Shown: positions 20,564-32,420 of the stretch, one piece after another
How the letters are laid out: each line of letters opens with the position of its first letter
How positions within the stretch are numbered: position 1 is the stretch's first letter
Assembly: GCA_002415855.1 (NCBI GenBank)
Contig: DIAS01000068.1
Coordinates: 6,484-70,483 of the forward strand
Length of the DNA: 64,000 bases
Direction of reading: 5' to 3'
Source of the DNA: Bacteroidales bacterium UBA5072
Lineage (GTDB): Bacteria; Bacteroidota; Bacteroidia; Bacteroidales; UBA10428
Notes under the pieces: model-generated
What the model saw: the letters and a program-made list of their open reading frames with translations, nothing else
Databases searched by the model: none
Told to the model about the DNA's origin: nothing
Translations under genes and position numbers: made by a program

Positions 20564-20944
20564 TTAATTCGGATACCAATAGGAAACTGTATAACTTCCG
20601 CCTCCCTCGTAATAGGTTCCGCTTCCTTCATTGCTGCTGCCGGTGCTGGTGCTGGCCGGCGAGATATAAGATCCGACCGTAACCGTATCGCATGAACATA
20701 TCACACCGCCAAGGAAAGTAGAATCCGGTGAAGTGGTTATGGTATCACATGTACATACGCTTCCTGACCCGGGAAAATTTCTCGATGAGGCTACACAGTC
20801 GCATATGCACACTGCGCCTGCCGGTAAAGGCGTTTGGCAGGAAACCGTCAGAATTTCAGAACCCATCTGCCGGATCTGCCGTGCCTCAATGGCCTCAGTT
20901 ATGTCCGGATCAAACAGATGATGCACAGGCTTACCTTCGGGCAT
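20564..20944 (-). other. Tail-coding segment of paralog A (126 aa from MPEGKP to YWYPN-stop); putative modified region
   Basis: Counting from the Met of MPEG, Cys residues sit at tail positions 36, 46/48/50, 64/66 and 83/85. Paralogs B and C have the same positions. Confidence 0.6.
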
Positions 20945-22015
20945 GGACCATAATCTGATGGTATGATCGCTGCTGCCGGAAACAAGAAACCGCCCGTCGG
21001 GACTAAAAGTTACCGAGTTCACGGCGTCCGTGTGTCCTTCAAAAGTGGAAAGAGGATTCCCGTTTTGAACCGACCACAACAATATAGTCTTGTCTTCACT
21101 TCCCGAGGCTATCGTTCTGCCGTCGGGTGCGAAACAAACTGAATTCACAAAGTCCTTATGACCTTTAAGTGTATTTATCAGCATGCCATCAGCCACAGAC
21201 CATATTCTGACACATTTATCCTGACTTCCGGTGGCAAGCATGTCGCTGTCATGATTAAAACACAATGTCAATACCGATTTAGAATGACCTGTCAGGGTTC
21301 TGATAACCTGCCCATCAGGCACAGTCCATAATTTTACAGAATTGTCACCGCTGCAGGATGCCAGGCTCTTACCGTCTGTACTGAAAGCAAGCGAATATAC
21401 AAAACTTGAATGGCCTTCCAGTGTGGTTAGCAGGTTCCCTTCGGGAAATGACCATAATTTAATCTTCTTGTCATAACTTCCGGTTGCCAGAAGCTTACCG
21501 TCAGGTGAAAAGCAGACTGCACTCACCCATCCTCCATGACCATCAAGCTTCTTTAGCAGACTGCCGTCTTTTGCCAGCCAAATGCTCACCGATTTGTCGT
21601 TGCTTCCGCAGGCAATGATTTCACCCAGGGGATGGATACTTATTGACCGGACCGCATTTGCCTCCGTTTCTAATTTGTTCACCAGACCTCCTCCGGGAAT
21701 TGACCAGATTTTGATAACACCCTCCTTGCCGCCTGAATAAAGCAGTTTATCATTTCTCCCAAAACAAAGCGTGTTGATGACATCGGAATGAGCCTGAAAG
21801 GCTGAAGAATTCTTACCTGTGTCTTTTATGATCCCTCCCTGAGGTGTACTATTCTTTTCTGCACATCCCGTTATTGGCAAAAGCGACAGACCTGCCCCGA
21901 GCGTTCCCAGGCTACCCAGAAATCTTTTACGCGAAAGGGATAATCCTTTCCTGTCCTTTTTAAAGGCATATATCTCAGGCCCTTCATCCTGTTTTAAAGC
22001 TCGTTTTTTTATCAT
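20564..22015 (-). CDS. WD40 beta-propeller protein, paralog A: Tat-like signal with lipobox, about 7 WD repeats, C-terminal 8-Cys + Gly/Tyr tail ending YWYPN
   Basis: 483 aa. The N-terminus has SRKRFLGSLGTLGAGLSLLPITGC. WD repeats follow the pattern H.D.V.S..FSPDG..LASGS.D.TIKLWS. The tail is ...SCQTPLPAGAVCICDCVASSRNFPGSGSVCTCDTITTSPDSTFLGGVICSCDTVTVG...GTYYEGGGSYTVSYWYPN. Confidence 0.85.
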   Translation of the reverse strand: MIKKRALKQDEGPEIYAFKKDRKGLSLSRKRFLGSLGTLGAGLSLLPITGCAEKNSTPQGGIIKDTGKNSSAFQAHSDVINTLCFGRNDKLLYSGGKEGVIKIWSIPGGGLVNKLETEANAVRSISIHPLGEIIACGSNDKSVSIWLAKDGSLLKKLDGHGGWVSAVCFSPDGKLLATGSYDKKIKLWSFPEGNLLTTLEGHSSFVYSLAFSTDGKSLASCSGDNSVKLWTVPDGQVIRTLTGHSKSVLTLCFNHDSDMLATGSQDKCVRIWSVADGMLINTLKGHKDFVNSVCFAPDGRTIASGSEDKTILLWSVQNGNPLSTFEGHTDAVNSVTFSPDGRFLVSGSSDHTIRLWSMPEGKPVHHLFDPDITEAIEARQIRQMGSEILTVSCQTPLPAGAVCICDCVASSRNFPGSGSVCTCDTITTSPDSTFLGGVICSCDTVTVGSYISPASTSTGSSNEGSGTYYEGGGSYTVSYWYPN

Positions 22016-25187: not shown

Positions 25188-25565
25188 TTAGTTGGGATAC
25201 CAATATGTCCGGTAATAGGTAGTCCCGCCGTAATAAGTACCTGGATTGTAATAGGTTGTCCCACCATGGTAACCCGAGTACGTGGAGCTGCTTCCGATCG
25301 TAATTGTATTGCAGATGCATATCATGGTGCCTGATAAGGCAGCACCAGCGGGAAGTGTAATTGTATTACATGTGCAAACCATTTCTGTACCCGGGTAGCT
25401 TCTTGAATCCGCAATACAATCACATATGCAGGTAGCACCGGGGGGTATGGGAGAACCACAGGGCAATGTCAAAACACCCGGGCCCATTTGCTTTACCTGC
25501 ATGGCATCTGTTTTTTCAGTAACAGAAGGATCAAAGATCACAAAGCATGGATCACCTTCCGGCAT
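25188..25565 (-). other. Tail-coding segment of paralog B (125 aa); putative modified region
   Basis: Same Cys spacing as A and C (tail positions 36, 46/48/50, 64/66, 83/85). One extra Cys sits at tail position 7. Confidence 0.6.
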
Positions 25566-26588
25566 TGTCCATAGACGGATTGTTTTATCAGCACCTCCTG
25601 CTACCAAGGTCTGTCCGTCGGGGGTGAAACAAACAACATTGACATCTTCATTTGTCTCTATTTTCAGAGTCAATAGATCCGACCCTTCGGGTACAGACCA
25701 GATTTTAACCGTATTGTCACTGCTGCCCGATGCGAGCCAATTGCCGCCCGGATTAAAACAAACCGAGTTGACAGTTTGGGTATGGCCTTCCAGTGTTTTA
25801 ATGAGCGTACCTTCAGGAACGGACCAAAGCATAATTGTTTTGTCCTCACCCGCAGAAGCCAATATTTTGCCATCACTCCTAAAACACAGATCTGTGGCTT
25901 TTTCACGGTGTCCTGCCAGCATCTTCAGTACTTTATCTTCGTGCAGGGACCAGAGTGTGATCTGATGATCCATTCCGGACCATGCAAGCAGTTTGCTGTC
26001 GGGACTGAAGCATACCACCTCAATCTTATCCTTCAGCGATAACGTTTTCAAGGGTTTCAGACCTGTGAGGGAGGTTAACCTGATGGTGTTGTTCAGGGGG
26101 AGCGTGGCAACCATTTTGCTGTCGGGGCTGATACGTACCTTATGTCCCATCACTCTGCCAAGGCTTTTTCCGGTCGGTAAATACCAGAACTCCGTCTGAT
26201 TAATATTGCGGTAACCGATCGCCAGAATTTTACCGTCGGGACTAAAACTCAGGTCATCCACCGAGCCGCAAGGGAATGTCTTCAGTAATTTTCCGTCAGG
26301 CAAAGACCAAAGTTTGGCAGTTCCGTCGGAACTTCCCGATGCAATTATCTCACCGTCAGCTCTGACTTTGAGTGCAGTTACTTCATTATTATGTGCCTTG
26401 AAGACCGACAGATCCAATCCCTTTACTTCAATCTTATCGGCAAGCGCCTCGACAGGCTTGAGTGAAAGTACGGCTCCGATGGTGCCAATTGCTCCAAGAA
26501 ATTCCTTTCTGGTGAAGATCAGCTTATCCCTGGTCTTTTTAATTCCGTAAATTTCAGCCTCTCCATTCTTTTTATTGGGTGTTTTCAT
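25188..26588 (-). CDS. WD40 beta-propeller protein, paralog B: Tat-like signal, C-terminal 8-Cys + Gly/Tyr tail ending YWYPN
   Basis: The listed ORF extends to 26651. Met22 at 26588 (MKTPNKKNGEAEIYGIKK...) aligns with the starts of paralogs A and C and avoids overlapping the tail of paralog C. The tail is ...PCGSPIPPGATCICDCIADSRSYPGTEMVCTCNTITLPAGAALSGTMICICNTITIG...YYGGTTYYRTYWYPN. Confidence 0.85.
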   Translation of the reverse strand: MKTPNKKNGEAEIYGIKKTRDKLIFTRKEFLGAIGTIGAVLSLKPVEALADKIEVKGLDLSVFKAHNNEVTALKVRADGEIIASGSSDGTAKLWSLPDGKLLKTFPCGSVDDLSFSPDGKILAIGYRNINQTEFWYLPTGKSLGRVMGHKVRISPDSKMVATLPLNNTIRLTSLTGLKPLKTLSLKDKIEVVCFSPDSKLLAWSGMDHQITLWSLHEDKVLKMLAGHREKATDLCFRSDGKILASAGEDKTIMLWSVPEGTLIKTLEGHTQTVNSVCFNPGGNWLASGSSDNTVKIWSVPEGSDLLTLKIETNEDVNVVCFTPDGQTLVAGGADKTIRLWTMPEGDPCFVIFDPSVTEKTDAMQVKQMGPGVLTLPCGSPIPPGATCICDCIADSRSYPGTEMVCTCNTITLPAGAALSGTMICICNTITIGSSSTYSGYHGGTTYYNPGTYYGGTTYYRTYWYPN

Positions 26589-26589
26589 A

Positions 26590-26616
26590 TCAGTTGGGTT
26601 AGGGTTCTCAGTTGGG
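26590..26616 (-). repeat. 9-nt direct repeat CCCAACTGA x2 (9-nt spacer) at the paralog C stop / paralog B start junction
   Basis: The minus strand reads TAC TGG TAT CCC AAC TGA GAA CCC TAA CCC AAC TGA T ATG. This gives three in-frame stops in 27 nt, and the second copy abuts the paralog B ATG. Confidence 0.8.
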
Positions 26617-26946
26617 ATACCAGTATGTAGTGTAATAGCCTCCGCCGCCATAATAAGTTGGAGGAGAATAGGTTCCTACTGTTATGGTATTGCATATGCA
26701 AATCATCCCGGCGGATAAAGGCGAACCGGCCGGTATGGTAATGGTATCACACGTACAAATGGTATGAGAACCAGGATAGCTCCGTGAAGAAGAAATGCAG
26801 TCGCAGATACAAGTAGCTCCGGCAGGCAGGGGCGTACCACAGGGCATGGTTAGTGTTTCAGGCCCCATTTGACGGACCCTTCGTGCATCTGTTTTTTCAG
26901 TATTTGCCGGATCGAACAAAATATAGGCTGGTTTGCCTTCAGGCAT
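26608..26946 (-). other. Tail-coding segment of paralog C (112 aa); putative modified region
   Basis: Same Cys spacing as A and B. It has the shortest Gly/Tyr segment (21 aa after the last CxC block). Confidence 0.6.
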
Positions 26947-27996
26947 GGTCAACAACCGGATTTTGTCATCATTGCTTCCGGTTGCAAGGGTCTGTCCGTC
27001 GGGACTGAAGCAAACCGCATTAATATCACCTGACTGGCCCATGAAGGTATTCAGAGTTTTCCTGTCATTCACCGACCAGAGTTTAAGCATACCCGAGTTA
27101 TTTTCGTAAGCGGTGGCAACCATTCTGCCATCGGGACTAAAAGTGAGCGCATTCACCTGTTTGCCTAATTCTTCCTTCGTTTGAATAAGTTCGAATTCAG
27201 GAATCCTCCAGAACTTCATGGCATGATCCGTACTTCCTGAAGCCAGTATTCTGCCATCGGGACTGAAACACAGGGAATTTATACTTCCTGTATGGCCCTC
27301 GAGGGTATTCAGCAACTGCCCATCAGGCAAAGACCACAGTTTAATGTTCTGATCACTGCCCGATGCCAGGATCTTGCCATAAGGGCTGAAACAAACGGCA
27401 TAGACCTTGCCGTCAGAATAGGACTGCAGTTGTGTTGTCAGATTTCCTTGCTGAACAGACCAAAGTCTCACGGTATTATCATCACTGCAGGAGGCCAGCG
27501 ATTTTCCGTCAGGGCTGAAACATAAGCTTCTTACCCCGTAGGTGTGCCCTTTCAGCGTTTTTTGAAGATTCCCGTCAGGAACCGACCAAAGCCTGATGGT
27601 TTTATCGTTGCTGGCTGAGGCCAGCGTTTTACCATCGGGACTGAAGCAAACGGTTGTGACCTCCTCAGTATGTTGTTTGATCTTTTTGATGATCTTCCCG
27701 TCCGGGATGGACCACAATTTGATGGTATTATCGCTGCTTCCGGAAGCGAGCATTTTGCCGTCGGGACTAAAACAGACGGACTTTACCGCATCCGAATGCG
27801 ACTTAAAATCCGACACACCCGTACCTGTATCTTCTATCTTTTCCGCATGTCCTTCAACGGACAATAGTGCCATTCCGGCACCCAATGTGCCAATAGCACC
27901 CAGGAATTCTTTACGCGAGAAGGAAAGCCCTTCATTCTCTTTTTTCAGGGCATAGATCTCAGGTTTTTCATCGGATTTCTTTTTGGGGGTTTTCAT
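26608..27996 (-). CDS. WD40 beta-propeller protein, paralog C: Tat-like signal, C-terminal 8-Cys + Gly/Tyr tail ending YWYPN
   Basis: The listed ORF extends to 28035. Met14 at 27996 (MKTPKKKSDEKPEIYALKK...) aligns with paralogs A and B. The tail is ...PCGTPLPAGATCICDCISSSRSYPGSHTICTCDTITIPAGSPLSAGMICICNTITVGTYSPPTYYGGGGYYTTYWYPN. Confidence 0.85.
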   Translation of the reverse strand: MKTPKKKSDEKPEIYALKKENEGLSFSRKEFLGAIGTLGAGMALLSVEGHAEKIEDTGTGVSDFKSHSDAVKSVCFSPDGKMLASGSSDNTIKLWSIPDGKIIKKIKQHTEEVTTVCFSPDGKTLASASNDKTIRLWSVPDGNLQKTLKGHTYGVRSLCFSPDGKSLASCSDDNTVRLWSVQQGNLTTQLQSYSDGKVYAVCFSPYGKILASGSDQNIKLWSLPDGQLLNTLEGHTGSINSLCFSPDGRILASGSTDHAMKFWRIPEFELIQTKEELGKQVNALTFSPDGRMVATAYENNSGMLKLWSVNDRKTLNTFMGQSGDINAVCFSPDGQTLATGSNDDKIRLLTMPEGKPAYILFDPANTEKTDARRVRQMGPETLTMPCGTPLPAGATCICDCISSSRSYPGSHTICTCDTITIPAGSPLSAGMICICNTITVGTYSPPTYYGGGGYYTTYWYPN

Positions 27997-29332
27997 GGAT
28001 TTTATAATTGATTGATTTTCCGTCGCATACACCACCGCTATCTATCATGCATCGTATCAGCAGTTCCCTTGTTATATCACGGTTTACATCACAGCGGCTG
28101 GAAAACGTTGTATTGCCGAAACTCCCCGGCAATATTGTTTTCGCCGGACAATCCCCCGCACAATGCCAGTAACAATAACATTCCCGGCACAATAGTTTTC
28201 TTTCTGCAATCCGATTTTGAAAATCTTCCCGTTTCTTAAAATCAATCCTCATTTCTCCGGTTGCTGAAAGTTGTCCGAAGTGAAAGGCTTCTGCCAGCGG
28301 ATGACTTCCGCCTGATATCTCATAGCACGATGACAATATCCCATCGGGAGTAACCACCAGGGCATTGTCATGGGCGGTGCAAAAACAATCCGTATTCACC
28401 CAGGGCCTGGCACCGGAATAATATAACCAGCGTTTGTTTTCCCTGGCTATGTCATATGCCTTTAAAAAACTCTCGACAAAAAGCTTGTTGTTTTGAATAG
28501 TCTGGTGATTGGCTACAGCCCTTCCGGCACCGAATGCAGGTTCCACCTGGAAAGTCTGGCATTTTGTTTCATTGCAAAGGAAAGCAATGCTCCGTTCCAG
28601 GTGATTCACACTGTTGTTGGTAACTGTGAGCCTTATACCATAACGGATACCGGATTGATCAAGCTTCCGGATATTATTCATGATGACATCAAAGGTGCTG
28701 CCTCCAATTGTCAATGGCCGTTGCTGATCCTGAACCTCTTTTATCCCGTCAAAGGAAAGGGTAAGTGTGTCGATATTGGATATAATCCAGGCTGCTTTGT
28801 TATTGTTCCAGTAACCATTCGATGTAAGCTCTATACTGCAGGGCAGATCCTTGTTCCTTGCATACCGGGTAAAATCCTGCAGCTTTTGAAAAGGCAAGGC
28901 AGGTTCACCTCCGCCGTGAAAAGCCACAGTAAATTGACCTGTACCAGCCTTTACTGCATGATCATATACAAAATCAATTGCTTTTTTACCTGTATCAAGG
29001 GACAATTCCGATGGTACAGCGTCCCCGCCATTGGCAAAGCAATAGGTGCACCTGAAGTTGCATGCCGATGTCATGCACAGAACAGCTACCGTGGGCTTAA
29101 ATTCAGTGGTGGTATTTTTTGAACTCTCAAAATGACGGGTATTAAAGAATCCATGTGCCTGCAAAAACGACAGAACTTTTTTATTCTTCTCAGGGTTAAC
29201 TATTTTCTTGCCCATGACATCGCCTATGAGATCCACGGTAGCCTGGTTACCTACAAATGCAAATTTGTTGAGCGGCTGATAAATGATATATTTATCCAGG
29301 TAAGGTATGGTATAGGTATCCGGATGAAGCAT
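27968..29332 (-). CDS. Radical SAM enzyme with a full SPASM domain (peptide/protein-modifying maturase type, anSME/QhpD-like architecture)
   Basis: 454 aa. The CX3CX2C motif is CNFRCTYC, after an about 85-aa N-terminal extension (YIIYQPLNKFAFVGNQATVDLI, RRE-like). SPASM motifs seen directly: C-x12-G-x4-C (CTAHDNALVVTPDGILSSC) and C-x2-C-x5-C-x3-C (CRECYCYWHCAGDC). The stop overlaps the paralog C start by 29 nt. Confidence 0.85.
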   Translation of the reverse strand: MLHPDTYTIPYLDKYIIYQPLNKFAFVGNQATVDLIGDVMGKKIVNPEKNKKVLSFLQAHGFFNTRHFESSKNTTTEFKPTVAVLCMTSACNFRCTYCFANGGDAVPSELSLDTGKKAIDFVYDHAVKAGTGQFTVAFHGGGEPALPFQKLQDFTRYARNKDLPCSIELTSNGYWNNNKAAWIISNIDTLTLSFDGIKEVQDQQRPLTIGGSTFDVIMNNIRKLDQSGIRYGIRLTVTNNSVNHLERSIAFLCNETKCQTFQVEPAFGAGRAVANHQTIQNNKLFVESFLKAYDIARENKRWLYYSGARPWVNTDCFCTAHDNALVVTPDGILSSCYEISGGSHPLAEAFHFGQLSATGEMRIDFKKREDFQNRIAERKLLCRECYCYWHCAGDCPAKTILPGSFGNTTFSSRCDVNRDITRELLIRCMIDSGGVCDGKSINYKIHENPQKEIR

Positions 29333-31022
29333 CCTCTAAATTTAACAAGTTAATTTGATTATTATCATAGCGTTTCATCTTTTCTTTTAGTCTCTCCCAG
29401 AATTCTGATATAAAGGGGAGATTACAGTCATTCTTATGGTTGCAGGAGCTGCAATTAAAACAATCGGGTAAATTCATCCTGTGAAATACGTCCCGCGGTC
29501 TGAAACTTTCATTTCCTCCACAGAGGGATCTCAGGAATGGCAAGGATTGCATCTCGCTGAGCGAAAAGTGGTCCGAAATTCTGCCCTGCAGAATACTGAA
29601 ACTGATCAGGCCAAGGAGTTGCTCCGAATTTAACCGGCCAACCGGGTGCTTTGGATAATACCTGAAATAATCACCGGTGTGAAATTCCTTATCGGGCGAG
29701 ACATCAACGTACTTCTGCAACGAACGGAGCATGTTTGTTCGTTCTTTGCCGGTGCTCCTTTTCAGGTTTGCCATTACCGGCAGGAACTGATCAAACTCGA
29801 GAAATGCGGTTGAAAATGAGTTGTCAGGGAAACTGGTAATTTCACTCATACCTGGAATGTAGACAGAATAGGCAGGTTGCCCCAGAAATGAATTATCCCT
29901 TACAAAGAGTTTCCTGCTGTCTCTTTTCAAAATAGCGAAGAGAAATTGAAGATCCTGCTGATCAGAAACAGATTCGGGATGCTCAAATCCTGCAAATTCA
30001 TAAGAAGGAGCATCTGCCAAAAGATCAGGAGGCCATTGACCGGCATAGGCTTGAATTGTCCGACCCAGACTCTTTCTCCAAAAATCAGCATCGAGGTTAT
30101 AGGGCAGGTTTTCAATGAGTTCTTTCGCAGGCTGAAAAAGTATGGCCCCACCCTGGAAAATTTCTGTAAAGCAACGTTCCAGTGCCGTTATAGGGCTGGG
30201 ATCCGCGCCAAGATGAAAGGCGTGGCCGTTCTCATCATTGCTCAGCAATACACCTATAACCGGGTATCCCTTGCCCATTGAACAATCCTTAATCCTTATG
30301 CGATAGCCAAACTGATGTATTAACAGGTTGATCTTTTCAGAGATTTCTGTTCCTTCGAAACAGGACAAAGGGATATCAGGGGGACAAAACGGATCTTTAT
30401 ACAGGGACTTCATGACAAACCGTTCAAAGATCTCTGAGATACCCTGTATCAGGGCTTCTTCAGGCGTATTGCCACTGCACATACCATTACTGCCGACGAT
30501 GACCTGCATTTCCCTGAAAGGGAAATATGCCGTCTTTCTTTCAAATATTTCATAAAACGGGATGCCTGCATGCCAATGGCTGTTTTTATATTGATGCCGA
30601 GATATACCGGTGAGGAAGAAAAAATTATCTGCAAAAACGGAATTTGAATGTTTTCCTGTTAAAAAGTATTTCTCATCGGGGAAATGAAAGAACTGATGGA
30701 TTGTCTGTTTCTCTCGCTCACCTTCGGAGGGATATAGAAGCACCGAATAAAAAGCGAGATTCTGAACTCTTTCGATCATTTCGCCCCAGGCACTGGCTGA
30801 GGCCCATTCACTTGAGCCACCTTTGCCATAGGTTGTGAAAACCTCCTGCTGATTTTCCGGGTTAATTAAACTTAATTTGCAGGCCTTGAAATAAGCATTG
30901 CCTTCAACTGGTGTTTCGATCATTTCCGCACCAAGATCACTGAATATGGCCCTGATGATCCTGACAGTTTCATGCGGAGGTTTTGCTTTATAGGGCTTGA
31001 CCCTTTTCAACGGCTTTGCCAT
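29292..31022 (-). CDS. Stand-alone YcaO-domain protein (ATP-dependent backbone-amide-activating family; E. coli YcaO-like length and architecture)
   Basis: 576 aa. The N-proximal motif TYGKGGSSEWASASAWGEMIERV corresponds to the YcaO signature (E. coli TNGKGATKKAALASALGEYFERL). There is no fused E1-like/Ocin-ThiF N-domain. The C-terminus carries a Cys cluster, CFNCSSCNHKNDC. It overlaps both flanking radical SAM genes (35 nt and 41 nt). Confidence 0.8.
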   Translation of the reverse strand: MAKPLKRVKPYKAKPPHETVRIIRAIFSDLGAEMIETPVEGNAYFKACKLSLINPENQQEVFTTYGKGGSSEWASASAWGEMIERVQNLAFYSVLLYPSEGEREKQTIHQFFHFPDEKYFLTGKHSNSVFADNFFFLTGISRHQYKNSHWHAGIPFYEIFERKTAYFPFREMQVIVGSNGMCSGNTPEEALIQGISEIFERFVMKSLYKDPFCPPDIPLSCFEGTEISEKINLLIHQFGYRIRIKDCSMGKGYPVIGVLLSNDENGHAFHLGADPSPITALERCFTEIFQGGAILFQPAKELIENLPYNLDADFWRKSLGRTIQAYAGQWPPDLLADAPSYEFAGFEHPESVSDQQDLQFLFAILKRDSRKLFVRDNSFLGQPAYSVYIPGMSEITSFPDNSFSTAFLEFDQFLPVMANLKRSTGKERTNMLRSLQKYVDVSPDKEFHTGDYFRYYPKHPVGRLNSEQLLGLISFSILQGRISDHFSLSEMQSLPFLRSLCGGNESFRPRDVFHRMNLPDCFNCSSCNHKNDCNLPFISEFWERLKEKMKRYDNNQINLLNLEDASSGYLYHTLPG

Positions 31023-31974
31023 GACCAGCTATGGGATTATAAAACCTTTGAATTCTGAATGACAGACAACCACCGTTGCACCGGTTATTGAACAAAGGGC
31101 AGGAGGAACAGTACGGGTATATTCCTATGGTCTTATATGATGTCAATGCCTCCTCGAATTTTCCAATCAGGTCTCCAGCCTGCAATTCATCGTGGATTTT
31201 AATTTTTGTCAGATTATTCAACGGGTAGCATGAAATAAAAGAGCCATCGGACAGCAAATCAATTATGGGATGGCAGCAGGTTCCGGCTTTCACCAATTCA
31301 TCCGCTAAAAGTTCATAATGCTCCTGTGGAAACATACAGGGAACAAAGCCACAGTCAAATCCCAGCGATATTCCCGATTTTTTTGCATCGAGCTTGAATT
31401 TTGCGATCTTTTGCCCAATTTTGGGATATTCCTTCGGATGCAGGTAAATATTGACCATGCTCAGAACCGAATGTGATATCCCCATCCGGATCTCCTTTTT
31501 GAGCCCGAATTTATTCACATAATCCAGCAGGTAATGCAATTCCTGCCTGGCGTTGTATATATTCACCCCGGCAATGATAACCGGTCCAAGCTTTTGCATC
31601 ACCTCCAGCTGACGCCTGGTGCCTGCCTCATTCTTCTCCTCCGGCTGTATGGTGTTCAGCAAAATAGAAAGCTTTTCTCGGGGTATGGAATACAGAAATT
31701 CCAGAACTTTATCCGAGATAAGTCCATTGGTAAAAAGCATTACGCTGAGACCACGGTTCAGTGCTTTCCCAACAAAACTTATAAATGCCGGATGAAGCGT
31801 AGGTTCTCCACCCAGCAGCCGGGCCTGCCGTATACCCGATCTCTCAAGGTAATCCAGCGCTTTTTCATAAAGCCCCTCCTCCATATGGGCTTTGCCATAC
31901 TCATTTCGCGTATCGTTGGCAAAACAATACACACAGCTTTTGTTGCAGACATTGGTAATTGACAGGTTGGCCAT
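30988..31974 (-). CDS. Radical SAM enzyme with a SPASM/twitch-like C-terminal Cys domain
   Basis: 328 aa. The CX3CX2C motif is at the extreme N-terminus (CNKSCVYC). The C-terminal region has C-x9-G-x4-C (CHPIIDLLSDGSFISC) and C-x2-C-x6-C-x3-C (CSSCPLFNNRCNGGC). Confidence 0.8.
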   Translation of the reverse strand: MANLSITNVCNKSCVYCFANDTRNEYGKAHMEEGLYEKALDYLERSGIRQARLLGGEPTLHPAFISFVGKALNRGLSVMLFTNGLISDKVLEFLYSIPREKLSILLNTIQPEEKNEAGTRRQLEVMQKLGPVIIAGVNIYNARQELHYLLDYVNKFGLKKEIRMGISHSVLSMVNIYLHPKEYPKIGQKIAKFKLDAKKSGISLGFDCGFVPCMFPQEHYELLADELVKAGTCCHPIIDLLSDGSFISCYPLNNLTKIKIHDELQAGDLIGKFEEALTSYKTIGIYPYCSSCPLFNNRCNGGCLSFRIQRFYNPIAGHGKAVEKGQAL

Positions 31975-31985
31975 GCTGTAGGGAA

Positions 31986-32420
31986 CTATTTGTCTGACAA
32001 TCCTATTTCATCCATGTTAAATGATTCTCTGGGATGGCAGATCCGCCATGATGCCAATCTGAAAAACAAGGAGGTGACGGTACTGTAAATATTGTGGTAA
32101 GGCAGATCCGCCTCATTCCGGATCAACAGTGCGGTTTGTTGAAGCGATTTGCCTTGCTGAAAATATTCGAATGCCTTGAGCTCAGTTTCGTTTAGCTCCA
32201 CACACAGGTATTTGTTAAACCTGCTTTCCGGTATGATAAAGAGGTTATTGTCCAAATGCCAGTTCTCCTCGGGAAAGAATACCGGTTCTATTTGCTCAAT
32301 CATCTTTTCAGGCAGTTCATGCAACCTGTTCAGCGGTATATGCTGAACACCGCGGATCTCATCGCGCAGAACGCCCAACTGACCAATAAACTGCCTGAAA
32401 AAGTCCCTTCTTGAATGCAT
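31986..32420 (-). CDS. Small cytoplasmic protein, possible PqqD-like peptide-binding (RRE) or chaperone component
   Basis: 144 aa and the first gene of the packed block. The segment LNETELKAFEYFQQGKSLQQTALLIRNEADLPYHNIYSTVTSLFFRLASWRI follows the PqqD/RRE winged-helix pattern. The N-terminus SRRDFFRQF looks like a twin-arginine motif but has no hydrophobic h-region. Confidence 0.4.
   Translation of the reverse strand: MHSRRDFFRQFIGQLGVLRDEIRGVQHIPLNRLHELPEKMIEQIEPVFFPEENWHLDNNLFIIPESRFNKYLCVELNETELKAFEYFQQGKSLQQTALLIRNEADLPYHNIYSTVTSLFFRLASWRICHPRESFNMDEIGLSDK

What the first reader, a model, noticed from the sequence alone, without database searches (positions are those of the whole stretch)
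27847..27996. Tat-like (R-K) signal peptides with an unusually conserved n-region on all three propeller proteins
N-termini:
- A (21863..22015): MIKKRALKQDEGPEIYAFKKDRKGLSLSRKRFLGSLGTLGAGLSLLPITGC
- B (26439..26588): MKTPNKKNGEAEIYGIKKTRDKLIFTRKEFLGAIGTIGAVLSLKPVEALA
- C (27847..27996): MKTPKKKSDEKPEIYALKKENEGLSFSRKEFLGAIGTLGAGMALLSVEGHA

The [ST]-R-K-x-F-L-G motif followed by a Gly/Ala-rich h-region resembles the twin-arginine consensus (S/T-R-R-x-F-L-K), with the second Arg replaced by Lys. Tat export of pre-folded, pre-modified proteins would fit cytoplasmic rSAM/YcaO maturation before export.

The about 25 residues in front of the motif (EIYxxKK...L.F) are also conserved. That is unusual for a signal n-region. 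They could be a recognition (leader-like) element for the PqqD-like protein or a Tat proofreading chaperone.

Only paralog A has a lipobox (ITGC). B and C look like signal-peptidase-I substrates, so the three paralogs may end up in different envelope locations.
Basis: partly seen in the sequence, partly recalled or inferred. Interest (0 to 1): 0.6.

Follow-up and report, generated by a model that had tools for sequence, protein, structure and literature searches.

The report
Leader motif fused to Tat signal
The three propeller proteins start with an export signal of the folded-protein (Tat) type. In front of it sits a short, strongly conserved motif that probably lets cytoplasmic radical-SAM enzymes grip the protein before export, a combination I could not find described in the literature.

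Summary
Paralogs A, B and C start exactly as quoted.

The module is not private to these paralogs. A profile of it finds 175 protein clusters among 1.84 billion, and 143 of the 150 listed carry the motif. The consensus is E-x-P-E-[IV]-Y-A-h-[KR]-[KQ], then 11 residues, then S-R-R-D-F-L-K and a Gly/Ala-rich core.
- RR occurs in 127 of 143 and RK in 15, so the window's S-R-K is a minority variant.
- The PE[IV]Y motif is as conserved as the twin-arginine motif, and the spacing is fixed in 135 of 143.
- 75 of 78 full-size members end in the Cys-rich [YH]YW[YH]PN tail.
- Curated Tat-signal models hit 35-40 of 54 family N-termini, but not the window copies.
- The genome has tatA, tatC and about 45 RR-type signals. 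The propeller h-regions match those in hydrophobicity, not Sec lipoprotein signals.

A CteB-like SPASM maturase with a predicted N-terminal RRE-like domain is the constant neighbour. The 144-aa protein also has an RRE fold, but one genome keeps the motif without it.

Best reading: a composite RiPP-type leader plus Tat signal. Export route and receptor are inferred, not shown. I found no description of it in the searchable literature.

The parts
27847..27996 (-). N-terminal module of paralog C (residues 1-50): n-region with leader-like motif, S-R-K-E-F-L-G, and Gly/Ala-rich h-region
   Evidence: Translation. Matches the family profile over positions 1-58 at 98-105 bits.
27940..27969 (-). Leader-like motif E-K-P-E-I-Y-A-L-K-K of paralog C (residues 10-19)
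   Evidence: Family logo: E 85%, P 99%, E 81%, V/I 98%, Y/F 99%, A 82%. Fixed 11-residue spacer to xRR in 135 of 143 members.
27898..27918 (-). Twin-arginine-type motif S-R-K-E-F-L-G of paralog C (residues 27-33)
   Evidence: In the family the first R is 100% conserved; the second position is R in 89% and K in 9% of the anchored set, or RR 127 / RK 15 / RG 1 of 143. F is 99% and L 86%. PF10518 and TIGR01409 hit 35-40 of 54 family N-termini.
27844..27897 (-). h-region AIGTLGAGMALLSV plus putative signal-peptidase-I site E-G-H-A|E-K of paralog C (residues 34-51)
   Evidence: Maximum 12-residue Kyte-Doolittle mean is 1.78. The genome's RR signals give 1.69 +/- 0.36 and its Sec lipoprotein signals 2.62 +/- 0.44.
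26439..26588 (-). N-terminal module of paralog B (A-E-I-Y-G-I-K-K ... T-R-K-E-F-L-G ... A-L-A|D)
21863..22015 (-). N-terminal module of paralog A (P-E-I-Y-A-F-K-K ... S-R-K-R-F-L-G ... lipobox I-T-G-C)
26608..27996 (-). Paralog C gene: N-module, seven-repeat WD40 propeller, 8-Cys tail ending YWYPN
25188..26588 (-). Paralog B gene
20564..22015 (-). Paralog A gene (lipoprotein-type)
27968..29332 (-). CteB-like radical SAM/SPASM maturase. Residues 1-60 (29153-29332) form a three-strand, two-helix RRE-like domain. It is the constant neighbour of module-bearing precursors.
   Evidence: NCBIfam SCIFF/PapB maturase hits. PDB 5WGG at 1e-25. AF2 pLDDT 82 with E6-11, E14-19, E24-28, H30-40, H51-59. Foldseek gives CteB over 459 columns at E 1e-18. 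Locus census.
31986..32420 (-). 144-aa protein: disordered N-terminus with a bare S-R-R-D-F-F motif, then an RRE (PqqD-like) domain. Candidate second reader of the N-module, or partner of the RRE-less radical SAM next to it.
   Evidence: Alignment of 27 homologs. AF2 pLDDT 76.5. Foldseek top hits are lasso B1 6JX3_B, PqqD 5SXY and TbiB1 5V1V.
30988..31974 (-). Second radical SAM enzyme without a fused RRE. It lies next to the 144-aa protein in this window and in L006, L037 and L039; in L038, L053, L071 and L081 the two genes share the locus but are not adjacent.
29292..31022 (-). YcaO. Seen only here and in the Paludibacter locus, so it is an accessory rather than a core partner of the module.

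Best explanation
The first ~50 residues of A, B and C form a two-part targeting module, which is removed after use.

**Part 1: a leader-like strand motif.** E-x-P-E-I-Y-A-h-K-K sits a fixed 11 residues upstream of part 2.

**Part 2: a Tat-type signal peptide.** It has S-R-[R/K]-x-F-L-[K/G], a weakly hydrophobic Gly/Ala core, and then a signal-peptidase-I site (B, C) or a lipobox (A).

**Proposed order of events**
1. The propeller folds in the cytoplasm.
2. The CteB-like SPASM radical-SAM maturase, and probably the RRE-less radical SAM via the 144-aa RRE protein, docks on the leader motif through an RRE domain.
3. These enzymes crosslink or modify the Cys-rich C-terminal tail.
4. The finished, folded protein leaves through TatAC.
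5. Signal peptidase I or II cuts the whole module off.

**Shown here**
- The motif, its fixed spacing and its family-wide conservation.
- Its near-obligatory pairing with the tail.
- The Tat-type composition of the signal and the presence of Tat genes.
- The RRE folds and the gene neighbourhoods.

**Inferred**
- Binding of the motif by an RRE.
- Tat dependence of the R-K copies.
- The order of events and the cleavage.
For: **Family and motif**
- A profile search of 1.84 billion representatives gave 175 proteins at E <= 1e-3. Of the 150 listed, 143 carry the motif.
- Among the 143: RR 127, RK 15, RG 1. The spacer is 11 residues in 135 of 143.
- Information content of E-x-P-E-[VI]-Y-A equals that of R-R-x-F-L.
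- 75 of 78 members of 380 aa or more end in the [YH]YW[YH]PN tail, as do all 6 such ORFs in the own genome.
- The motif survives when the propeller is absent (140-170-aa precursors) and when the spacer is shortened, as in KPEIYSVKKGRREFI.

**Tat-type signal**
- PF10518 hits 35 of 54 and TIGR01409 hits 40 of 54 family N-termini.
- In 300 other genomes of the same order, the profile's second half matches only ordinary Tat signals.
- TatC and TatA are in the genome. TatC is also in three other carrier genomes.
- h-region hydrophobicity is 1.36-2.11, against 1.69 +/- 0.36 for the genome's ~45 RR signals and 2.62 +/- 0.44 for Sec lipoprotein signals.
- In the majority group the c-region carries Arg before an AxA site, e.g. 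GLNSRFVRPVSA. This is the Sec-avoidance pattern described in PMC7317946.

**Enzyme partners**
- A close SPASM-maturase homolog is adjacent to precursors in most loci with flanking sequence.
- Its N-terminal 60 residues fold as three strands and two helices at pLDDT ~90, and the whole model aligns with CteB 5WGG over its full length.
- I9, P10, Y18, P20 and N29 are invariant among 14 homologs that are 31-40% identical to the window enzyme.
- The 144-aa protein has an RRE fold.

**Precedents**
- CrpA/CrpC: a SPASM enzyme with an RRE modifies a large Cys-rich protein, and the paralogs share an N-terminus (PMC13692751).
- QhpC/QhpD (cited there).
- Bufferins use Sec signals, and bulky macrocycles are said to suit SecY poorly (PMC11626156).
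Against: - The window copies have R-K. Lys substitution is 'poorly tolerated' in E. coli Tat signals (PMC7317946), and neither Tat HMM reaches threshold on them.
- Paralog C has no basic residue in its c-region.
- No binding, export or cleavage was tested. No multimer model could be run.
- Conservation percentages come from sequences picked by a profile of the same motif, which inflates them somewhat.
- Two RRE-type candidates exist and the data do not assign the motif to either.
- In bufferins the signal peptide proved dispensable for modification (PMC11626156), so a signal-embedded leader is not a given.
Confidence: 0.55

Rival explanations
1. Export-gating chaperone. The conserved n-region and/or the adjacent R-R motif is bound mainly by the 144-aa RRE-fold protein. 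This protein would act as a Tat proofreading or escort factor that masks the signal until the tail is finished. Its own bare S-R-R-D-F-F peptide would serve as a decoy or a TatC-docking element. This rival is not exclusive of the main reading.
For: - The protein has an RRE fold, and its best matches are leader-bound lasso B1 proteins and PqqD.
- The R-R-x-F-[FL] motif at residues 3-10 is nearly invariant in 27 homologs, including distant ones. It has no h-region and is predicted disordered.
- The protein occurs with module-bearing precursors in the window and in 7 other loci.
- REMP chaperones are known to recognise Tat signal sequences (PMC3316669 abstract).
Against: - Genome G531 (99% complete) has a module-bearing precursor, a SPASM maturase and TatC, but no homolog of this protein at E <= 0.01.
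- The protein often sits beside the RRE-less radical SAM (window, L006, L037, L039). That fits an ordinary PqqD/PqqE-type partnership.
- It has no similarity to TorD, DmsD or NapD.
Confidence: 0.2
2. The window's R-K copies no longer use Tat. They would be Sec substrates or uncleaved signal-anchored proteins, and the Tat look would be a vestige of R-R ancestors.
For: - R-K instead of R-R in A, B, C and the C177 paralog.
- Tat HMMs do not hit them.
- R-K members have slightly more hydrophobic cores: 1.83 versus 1.72, one-sided p = 0.026 without phylogenetic correction.
- Lys is poorly tolerated in E. coli (PMC7317946).
Against: - Their hydrophobicity is still in the Tat range, about 2 SD below the genome's Sec lipoprotein signals.
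- The rest of the motif (S/T before, F-L after) and the leader motif are fully kept under purifying selection.
- R-K and R-R paralogs share operons in L006 and L038.
- A folded seven-repeat propeller with a radical-SAM-crosslinked tail is a poor Sec client.
- Increased hydrophobicity can compensate weak R-R recognition on Tat (PMC7317946).
Confidence: 0.15
3. The motif acts in cis on the export step itself. For example, a beta-hairpin formed by EIYALKK, a turn and LSFSRK could tune presentation of the R-R motif to TatC, with no RRE partner.
For: - The spacer is fixed at 11 residues and the residues just before S-R-R are semi-conserved (G 49%, W 48%, one variable residue, then I/F/L 89%).
- The motif always directly abuts the twin-arginine motif.
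Against: - Members with the spacer cut to 5-7 residues keep PE[IV]Y but lose the second strand.
- The motif is obligatorily paired with the tail and with radical-SAM neighbours, not with Tat substrates in general.
Confidence: 0.07
4. The n-region similarity is only shared ancestry of recent paralogs and has no function.
For: A, B and C are tandem or nearby paralogs.
Against: - The motif is 81-99% conserved across 129 cluster representatives at 50% identity, on different middle domains.
- Synonymous sites are saturated between the paralogs.
- The N-module is more conserved than the mature propeller.
Confidence: 0.03

Closest known systems
Twin-arginine (Tat) signal peptides, S-R-R-x-F-L-K type (Pfam PF10518, TIGR01409)
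   Same: - Tripartite layout.
- Family consensus S-R-R-D-F-L-K.
- Gly/Ala-rich, weakly hydrophobic h-region.
- Basic c-region and AxA site or lipobox in many members.
- Tat genes present.
   Different: - The window copies have R-K and fall below the HMM thresholds.
- The n-region carries a motif (E-x-P-E-[IV]-Y-A-h-[KR]-[KQ]) as conserved as the R-R motif, at fixed spacing. Ordinary Tat signals, including the ~45 in this genome, lack it.
RiPP leader peptides read by RRE domains: CteA/CteB (SCIFF), PapA/PapB, QhpC/QhpD, and the protein-scale CrpA/CrpC system (PMC13692751)
   Same: - A conserved N-terminal recognition sequence is shared by all precursors of a cluster.
- The Cys-rich C-terminal region is the target.
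- A CteB-like SPASM enzyme with an N-terminal RRE-like domain, plus a discrete RRE protein.
   Different: - The leader is embedded in an export signal.
- Leader and core are separated by a ~300-residue folded propeller.
- Removal would be by general signal peptidases and export by Tat, not by a dedicated protease and ABC pump.
Bufferins, MNIO-modified RiPPs with Sec signal peptides (PMC11626156)
   Same: Precursors of a cytoplasmically modified, Cys-based product carry a general-secretion signal instead of a classical leader, and end up in the periplasm.
   Different: - Sec rather than Tat.
- MNIO/DUF2063 enzymes rather than radical SAM.
- Small proteins.
- In bufferins the signal peptide was dispensable for modification and has no extra conserved n-region motif.
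REMP-guarded Tat signals (TorA/TorD, DmsA/DmsD, NapA/NapD; PMC3316669)
   Same: A cytoplasmic maturation step must finish before Tat export, and a dedicated protein binds the signal peptide of one specific client.
   Different: - No TorD/DmsD/NapD-family gene is present here.
- The clients are not cofactor-bearing redox enzymes.
- The candidate binders have the RRE fold.

Membership tests
Tat signal peptide | Consecutive arginine pair within S/T-R-R-x-F-L-K | tested here: inconclusive
   - Window copies A, B, C and the C177 paralog have S/T-R-K-x-F-L-G.
- In the family, RR occurs in 127 of 143 members, including two paralogs on C118 of the same genome.
- The first R is invariant.
Tat signal peptide | Match to curated Tat-signal profiles (PF10518, TIGR01409) | tested here: not met
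   The one window copy whose table was returned (paralog C) has no hit at E <= 0.1. Of the 54 family N-termini scanned, 35 (Pfam) and 40 (NCBIfam) hit, with best E 1.7e-8.
Tat signal peptide | Weakly hydrophobic, Gly/Ala-rich h-region of about 12 residues or more | tested here: met
   - Maximum 12-residue Kyte-Doolittle mean is 1.51 (A), 2.11 (B) and 1.78 (C).
- Own-genome RR signals give 1.69 +/- 0.36 and Sec lipoprotein signals 2.62 +/- 0.44.
- Family RR members give 1.72 and RK members 1.83.
Tat signal peptide | c-region with cleavage site, often a basic Sec-avoidance residue | tested here: inconclusive
   - A has lipobox ITGC, B has K-P-V-E-A-L-A|D, and C has E-G-H-A|E with no basic residue. 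These were read from the sequence.
- The majority group has R..R before AxA.
- No SignalP or TatP was available.
Tat signal peptide | Tat translocase encoded in the genome | tested here: met
   TatC at C29:7611-8315 (224 bits). TatA at C98:8375-8518 (64 bits). TatC is also present in G301, G302 and G531.
Tat signal peptide | Export abolished in a tat mutant | not testable with these tools
   Needs reporter fusions in wild-type and tat-deletion laboratory strains.
RiPP-type leader recognised by an RRE | Conserved N-terminal motif shared by all precursors, separate from the modified core | tested here: met
   PE[IV]Y motif logo. Present on propeller-bearing, long and propeller-less precursors. 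Paired with the tail in 75 of 78 full-size members.
RiPP-type leader recognised by an RRE | RRE (PqqD-like) domain in a maturase or partner protein of the cluster | tested here: met
   - The 144-aa protein matches 6JX3_B, 5SXY and 5V1V on Foldseek, with probability 1.00 and TM (target) 0.61-0.74.
- The SPASM maturase has a confident N-terminal three-strand, two-helix domain and aligns with CteB over its full length.
RiPP-type leader recognised by an RRE | Physical binding of the leader motif to the RRE, and dependence of modification on it | not testable with these tools
   No multimer prediction or experiment was possible. The only indirect evidence is that G531 keeps the motif with the SPASM enzyme but without the 144-aa protein.
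REMP / Tat proofreading chaperone system (TorD, DmsD, NapD families) | A TorD/DmsD- or NapD-family chaperone encoded with the client | tested here: not met
   No such Pfam or NCBIfam hit among the ten cluster proteins. The small protein has an RRE fold instead.

The most novel reading that the evidence does not exclude
The module is a maturation-coupled export checkpoint.
- An RRE domain bound to the PE[IV]Y strand sits directly on the neighbouring twin-arginine motif, so TatC cannot see the signal until the radical-SAM enzymes release the finished tail.
- The 144-aa RRE protein, with its own h-region-less S-R-R-D-F-F peptide, acts as a decoy or hand-over adaptor between maturase and translocase.
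- The R-K variants are deliberately weakened signals that lengthen the cytoplasmic dwell time.
Probability: 0.2. Interest if true: 0.8.

Novelty: new variant of a known kind. Interest (0 to 1): 0.64.

Why it matters
Tat signal n-regions are normally free to vary, and RiPP leaders are normally separate from general export signals. This family shows both functions apparently fused in one ~45-residue module. It comprises 175 clusters at 50% identity, on propellers, longer proteins and short precursors.

If the reading holds, it would be the first natural case I can find of two things together:
- radical-SAM, RiPP-style chemistry applied to full-size folded proteins that leave the cell by Tat;
- a compact, portable tag (PE[IV]Y, 11 residues, S-R-R-x-F-L) that couples enzymatic maturation to export.

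It also gives a simple sequence signature for finding such precursors in genomes. And it offers a natural series of R-R, R-K and R-Q signals for studying Tat recognition.

Tried and rejected
- **Word-index search with residues 1-60 of C:** nothing found. The module is too short for that tool.
- **The search for related loci with the 8-sequence alignment:** The 5-sequence R-K alignment found only one genome locus, a Paludibacter MAG.
- **Pfam and NCBIfam:** no family covers the PE[IV]Y part. The 144-aa protein has no Pfam hit even at E = 10.
- **Velcro-strand idea:** that the motif closes the propeller as a velcro strand. Rejected because it lies upstream of the signal core and also occurs on precursors without a propeller.
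- **Gene-conversion idea:** that recent conversion explains the paralog similarity. Rejected by synonymous divergence.
- **The 144-aa protein as universal reader of the motif:** weakened by G531.
- **Its N-terminus as a copy of the precursor signal:** the similarity is only the 6-8-residue sRRdF[LF] core, at 6 bits or less.
- **YcaO as part of the module's core machinery:** rejected. It appears only in the window and in L006.
- **Literature:** searches for Tat combined with RiPP or radical SAM found no description of a natural system.
Full report
**Observation**

The three genes lie on the minus strand. Translating the given coordinates on the + strand yields stops. On the minus strand they give exactly the quoted N-termini.
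- Paralog C is 26608-27996, B is 25188-26588 and A is 20564-22015.
- All three are WD40 propellers with a shared Cys-rich tail ending YWYPN.
- They lie behind a 144-aa protein, a radical SAM, a YcaO and a CteB-like radical SAM/SPASM enzyme.

**The same genome holds more copies**

A six-frame scan of the 4.5-Mb assembly found four further items:
- a fourth R-K propeller on contig C177;
- a 738-aa member on C118, reading SPEIYAVKINKQGTGFERRDFLKTLGTLTTATLVGC, with a true R-R, the F-L-K consensus and a lipobox;
- a 144-aa propeller-less precursor on C118, reading PVVYKIRIKNRRDALKK...LLSGC, followed by a Cys-rich tail ending YWYPN;
- a 39-aa relic on C141.

Every ORF ending in YWYPN carries the N-terminal module. 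Both members on C118 sit next to SPASM radical SAM genes.

**The module defines a wide family**

A 59-position profile of twelve N-termini was searched against 1.84 billion representative proteins. It returned 175 hits at E <= 1e-3. Of the 150 listed, 143 carry the motif at the N-terminus.

The consensus is e-k-P-E-[VI]-Y-A-[LVI]-[RK]-[KQ]-d-g-x-G-W-x-[IFL]-S-R-R-D-F-L-K-A-A-G-x-G-A-A-A.
- R-R occurs in 127 members, R-K in 15 and R-G in 1.
- The spacer between Y and x-R-R is 11 residues in 135 of 143.
- Conservation is P 99%, Y/F 99%, V/I 98%, E(-2) 85% and A 82%. The information content equals that of R-R-x-F-L.
- 75 of 78 members of 380 aa or more end in [YH]YW[YH]PN or a close variant.
- The middle part varies. 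It is usually a ~300-residue propeller, sometimes longer, sometimes absent.

Some members shorten the spacer, as in KPEIYSVKKGRREFI and KPEIYKIVNRNRRKFIK. The PE[IV]Y strand is therefore the constant element.

One caveat applies. The sequences were selected with a profile of this very motif, so the percentages are upper estimates.

**Is it a Tat signal?**

Evidence in favour:
- Curated Tat-signal models hit 35 of 54 (PF10518) and 40 of 54 (TIGR01409) family N-termini.
- In 300 other genomes of the same order, the profile matches only through its second half (positions ~17-57), on ordinary Tat substrates. Full-length matches are confined to the own genome.
- The genome encodes TatC and TatA. 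So do three other carrier genomes for TatC.
- About 45 ORFs in the genome have canonical R-R signals. Their h-region hydrophobicity is 1.69 +/- 0.36, against 2.62 +/- 0.44 for Sec-type lipoprotein signals. The propeller paralogs score 1.36-2.11.
- In the majority group the c-region carries Arg residues before an AxA site. This is the Sec-avoidance pattern described in PMC7317946.

Evidence against for the window copies:
- They have R-K, they miss the HMM thresholds, and Lys is poorly tolerated in E. coli (PMC7317946).
- R-K members are only marginally more hydrophobic (1.83 versus 1.72).

R-K and R-R paralogs share operons in the Paludibacter locus L006 and in L038. I rate Tat export of the family as very likely, and of the R-K copies as likely but unproven.

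**Who reads the n-region motif?**

A census of 20-odd loci was built from homologs of the 144-aa protein, from family members and from a metagenome scan. It shows:
- a close homolog of the window's SPASM maturase next to the precursors in most loci with flanking sequence;
- the second radical SAM and the 144-aa protein in the window and seven other loci;
- YcaO only in the window and in L006.

The SPASM enzyme:
- It is CteB-like (5WGG at 1e-25 by sequence).
- Foldseek aligns it with CteB over 459 columns at E 1e-18.
- Its first 60 residues are predicted with pLDDT ~90 as three strands plus two helices.
- Five residues there are invariant among 14 homologs that are 31-40% identical to the window enzyme.

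The 144-aa protein:
- It has no Pfam hit.
- It folds as an RRE. Its best matches are lasso-peptide B1 proteins bound to their leaders, and PqqD.

A 99%-complete Bacteroidota genome (G531) has a short module-bearing precursor, a SPASM maturase and TatC, but no homolog of the 144-aa protein. The SPASM enzyme's own RRE-like domain is therefore the more economical reader. The 144-aa protein probably serves the RRE-less radical SAM that often lies beside it.

Binding itself was not testable here.

**Not mere paralogy**

Between A, B, C and the C177 copy, the N-module is 45-65% identical, the propeller 39-54% and the tail 52-70%. In five of the six pairs, more than half of the identical N-module residues use different codons.

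**Comparison with known systems**
- The nearest published analogues of a conserved N-terminus plus a SPASM/RRE enzyme acting on a large Cys-rich protein are CrpA/CrpC and QhpC/QhpD (PMC13692751).
- The nearest analogue of a RiPP-type precursor with a general export signal is the bufferin family. It uses Sec, and its signal is dispensable for modification. Its authors note that bulky macrocycles suit SecY poorly (PMC11626156).
- Chaperone-guarded Tat signals (REMPs) are the nearest analogue of maturation-before-export (PMC3316669 abstract). No such chaperone family is present here.
- Full-text searches found no natural Tat-routed RiPP or radical-SAM-modified protein family.
- Earlier AI notes of this scan describe the same enzyme-substrate pairing in other genomes. 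I treat them as leads only.

**Verdict**

- The Tat-type nature and the n-region conservation hold.
- The receptor is probably an RRE domain, most economically that of the SPASM maturase.
- The route of the R-K copies remains inferred.

Relative to the literature this is a new variant of known kinds: a Tat signal carrying a built-in leader motif.

**Unexplained**
- The nearly invariant bare S-R-R-D-F-F peptide on the 144-aa protein.
- The reason for R-K in one subgroup of the family.

Noticed in passing
window 32345-32420 (-), residues 1-25 of the 144-aa protein: The RRE-fold protein starts with a nearly invariant bare twin-arginine consensus, M-x-S-R-R-D-F-[FL]. It has no hydrophobic core and is predicted disordered. 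The motif is kept even in distant homologs (SRRNFF, YRRGFF, SRRQAF). It could be a decoy signal, a TatC contact or an enzyme interface; this is unresolved.
   Followed up: partly
own genome contig C141:17473-17541 (+) = L004:1474-1542: A 39-codon relic, SSEIYELKKLCFSRKRFLGIIGTN*, of an N-module. It lies between a MarR-like gene and a cation-efflux gene and is a decayed family member.
   Followed up: no
own genome C118:9493-11795 (L002); L006:1867-2926; L037:7555-10004; L082:641-3102: A recurrent minimal three-gene unit: a short propeller-less precursor (N-module plus Cys tail), a small outer-membrane beta-barrel-like protein, and a SPASM radical SAM.
   Followed up: partly
L006:9479-12107, L037:13075-18934 and family members P0062, P0069, P0134, P0146, P0158: Lipoprotein-type members from Lys-rich (Bacteroidota-like) sequences have acidic runs right after the lipobox Cys (C-EEEV, C-ETEI, C-KKDDSKD, C-EDDDKP). 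This resembles, from my own knowledge, the Bacteroidota lipoprotein surface-export signal. Window paralog A has only C-AEKNST.
   Followed up: no
window 27835-27846 and 26427-26438 (-); homologs P0001, P0057, P0060, P0067 and L006:8001: In the R-K, non-lipoprotein subgroup, the residues just after the predicted cleavage site are conserved (A|[DE]-K-I-[EIM]-D-x-G). This suggests a defined mature N-terminus, or an uncleaved juxtamembrane element.
   Followed up: no
L037:10438-10695, L039:530-784, L038:17866-18144 (-): An additional ~85-aa classical PqqD-like ORF lies next to rSAM2 in these loci, and in L037 and L039 it sits between the 144-aa homolog and rSAM2. It is absent from the window, where those two genes are 11 nt apart.
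   Followed up: no
L039:2807-3298: A family precursor with S-R-Q-E-F-L-K, i.e. Gln at the second arginine position. With R-K and R-G it is a third natural variant of the pair in this family.
   Followed up: no
L006:14898-15839: A 313-aa Cys-rich ORF follows the two SPASM genes in the Paludibacter locus. The window has no equivalent in the stretch I examined.
   Followed up: no
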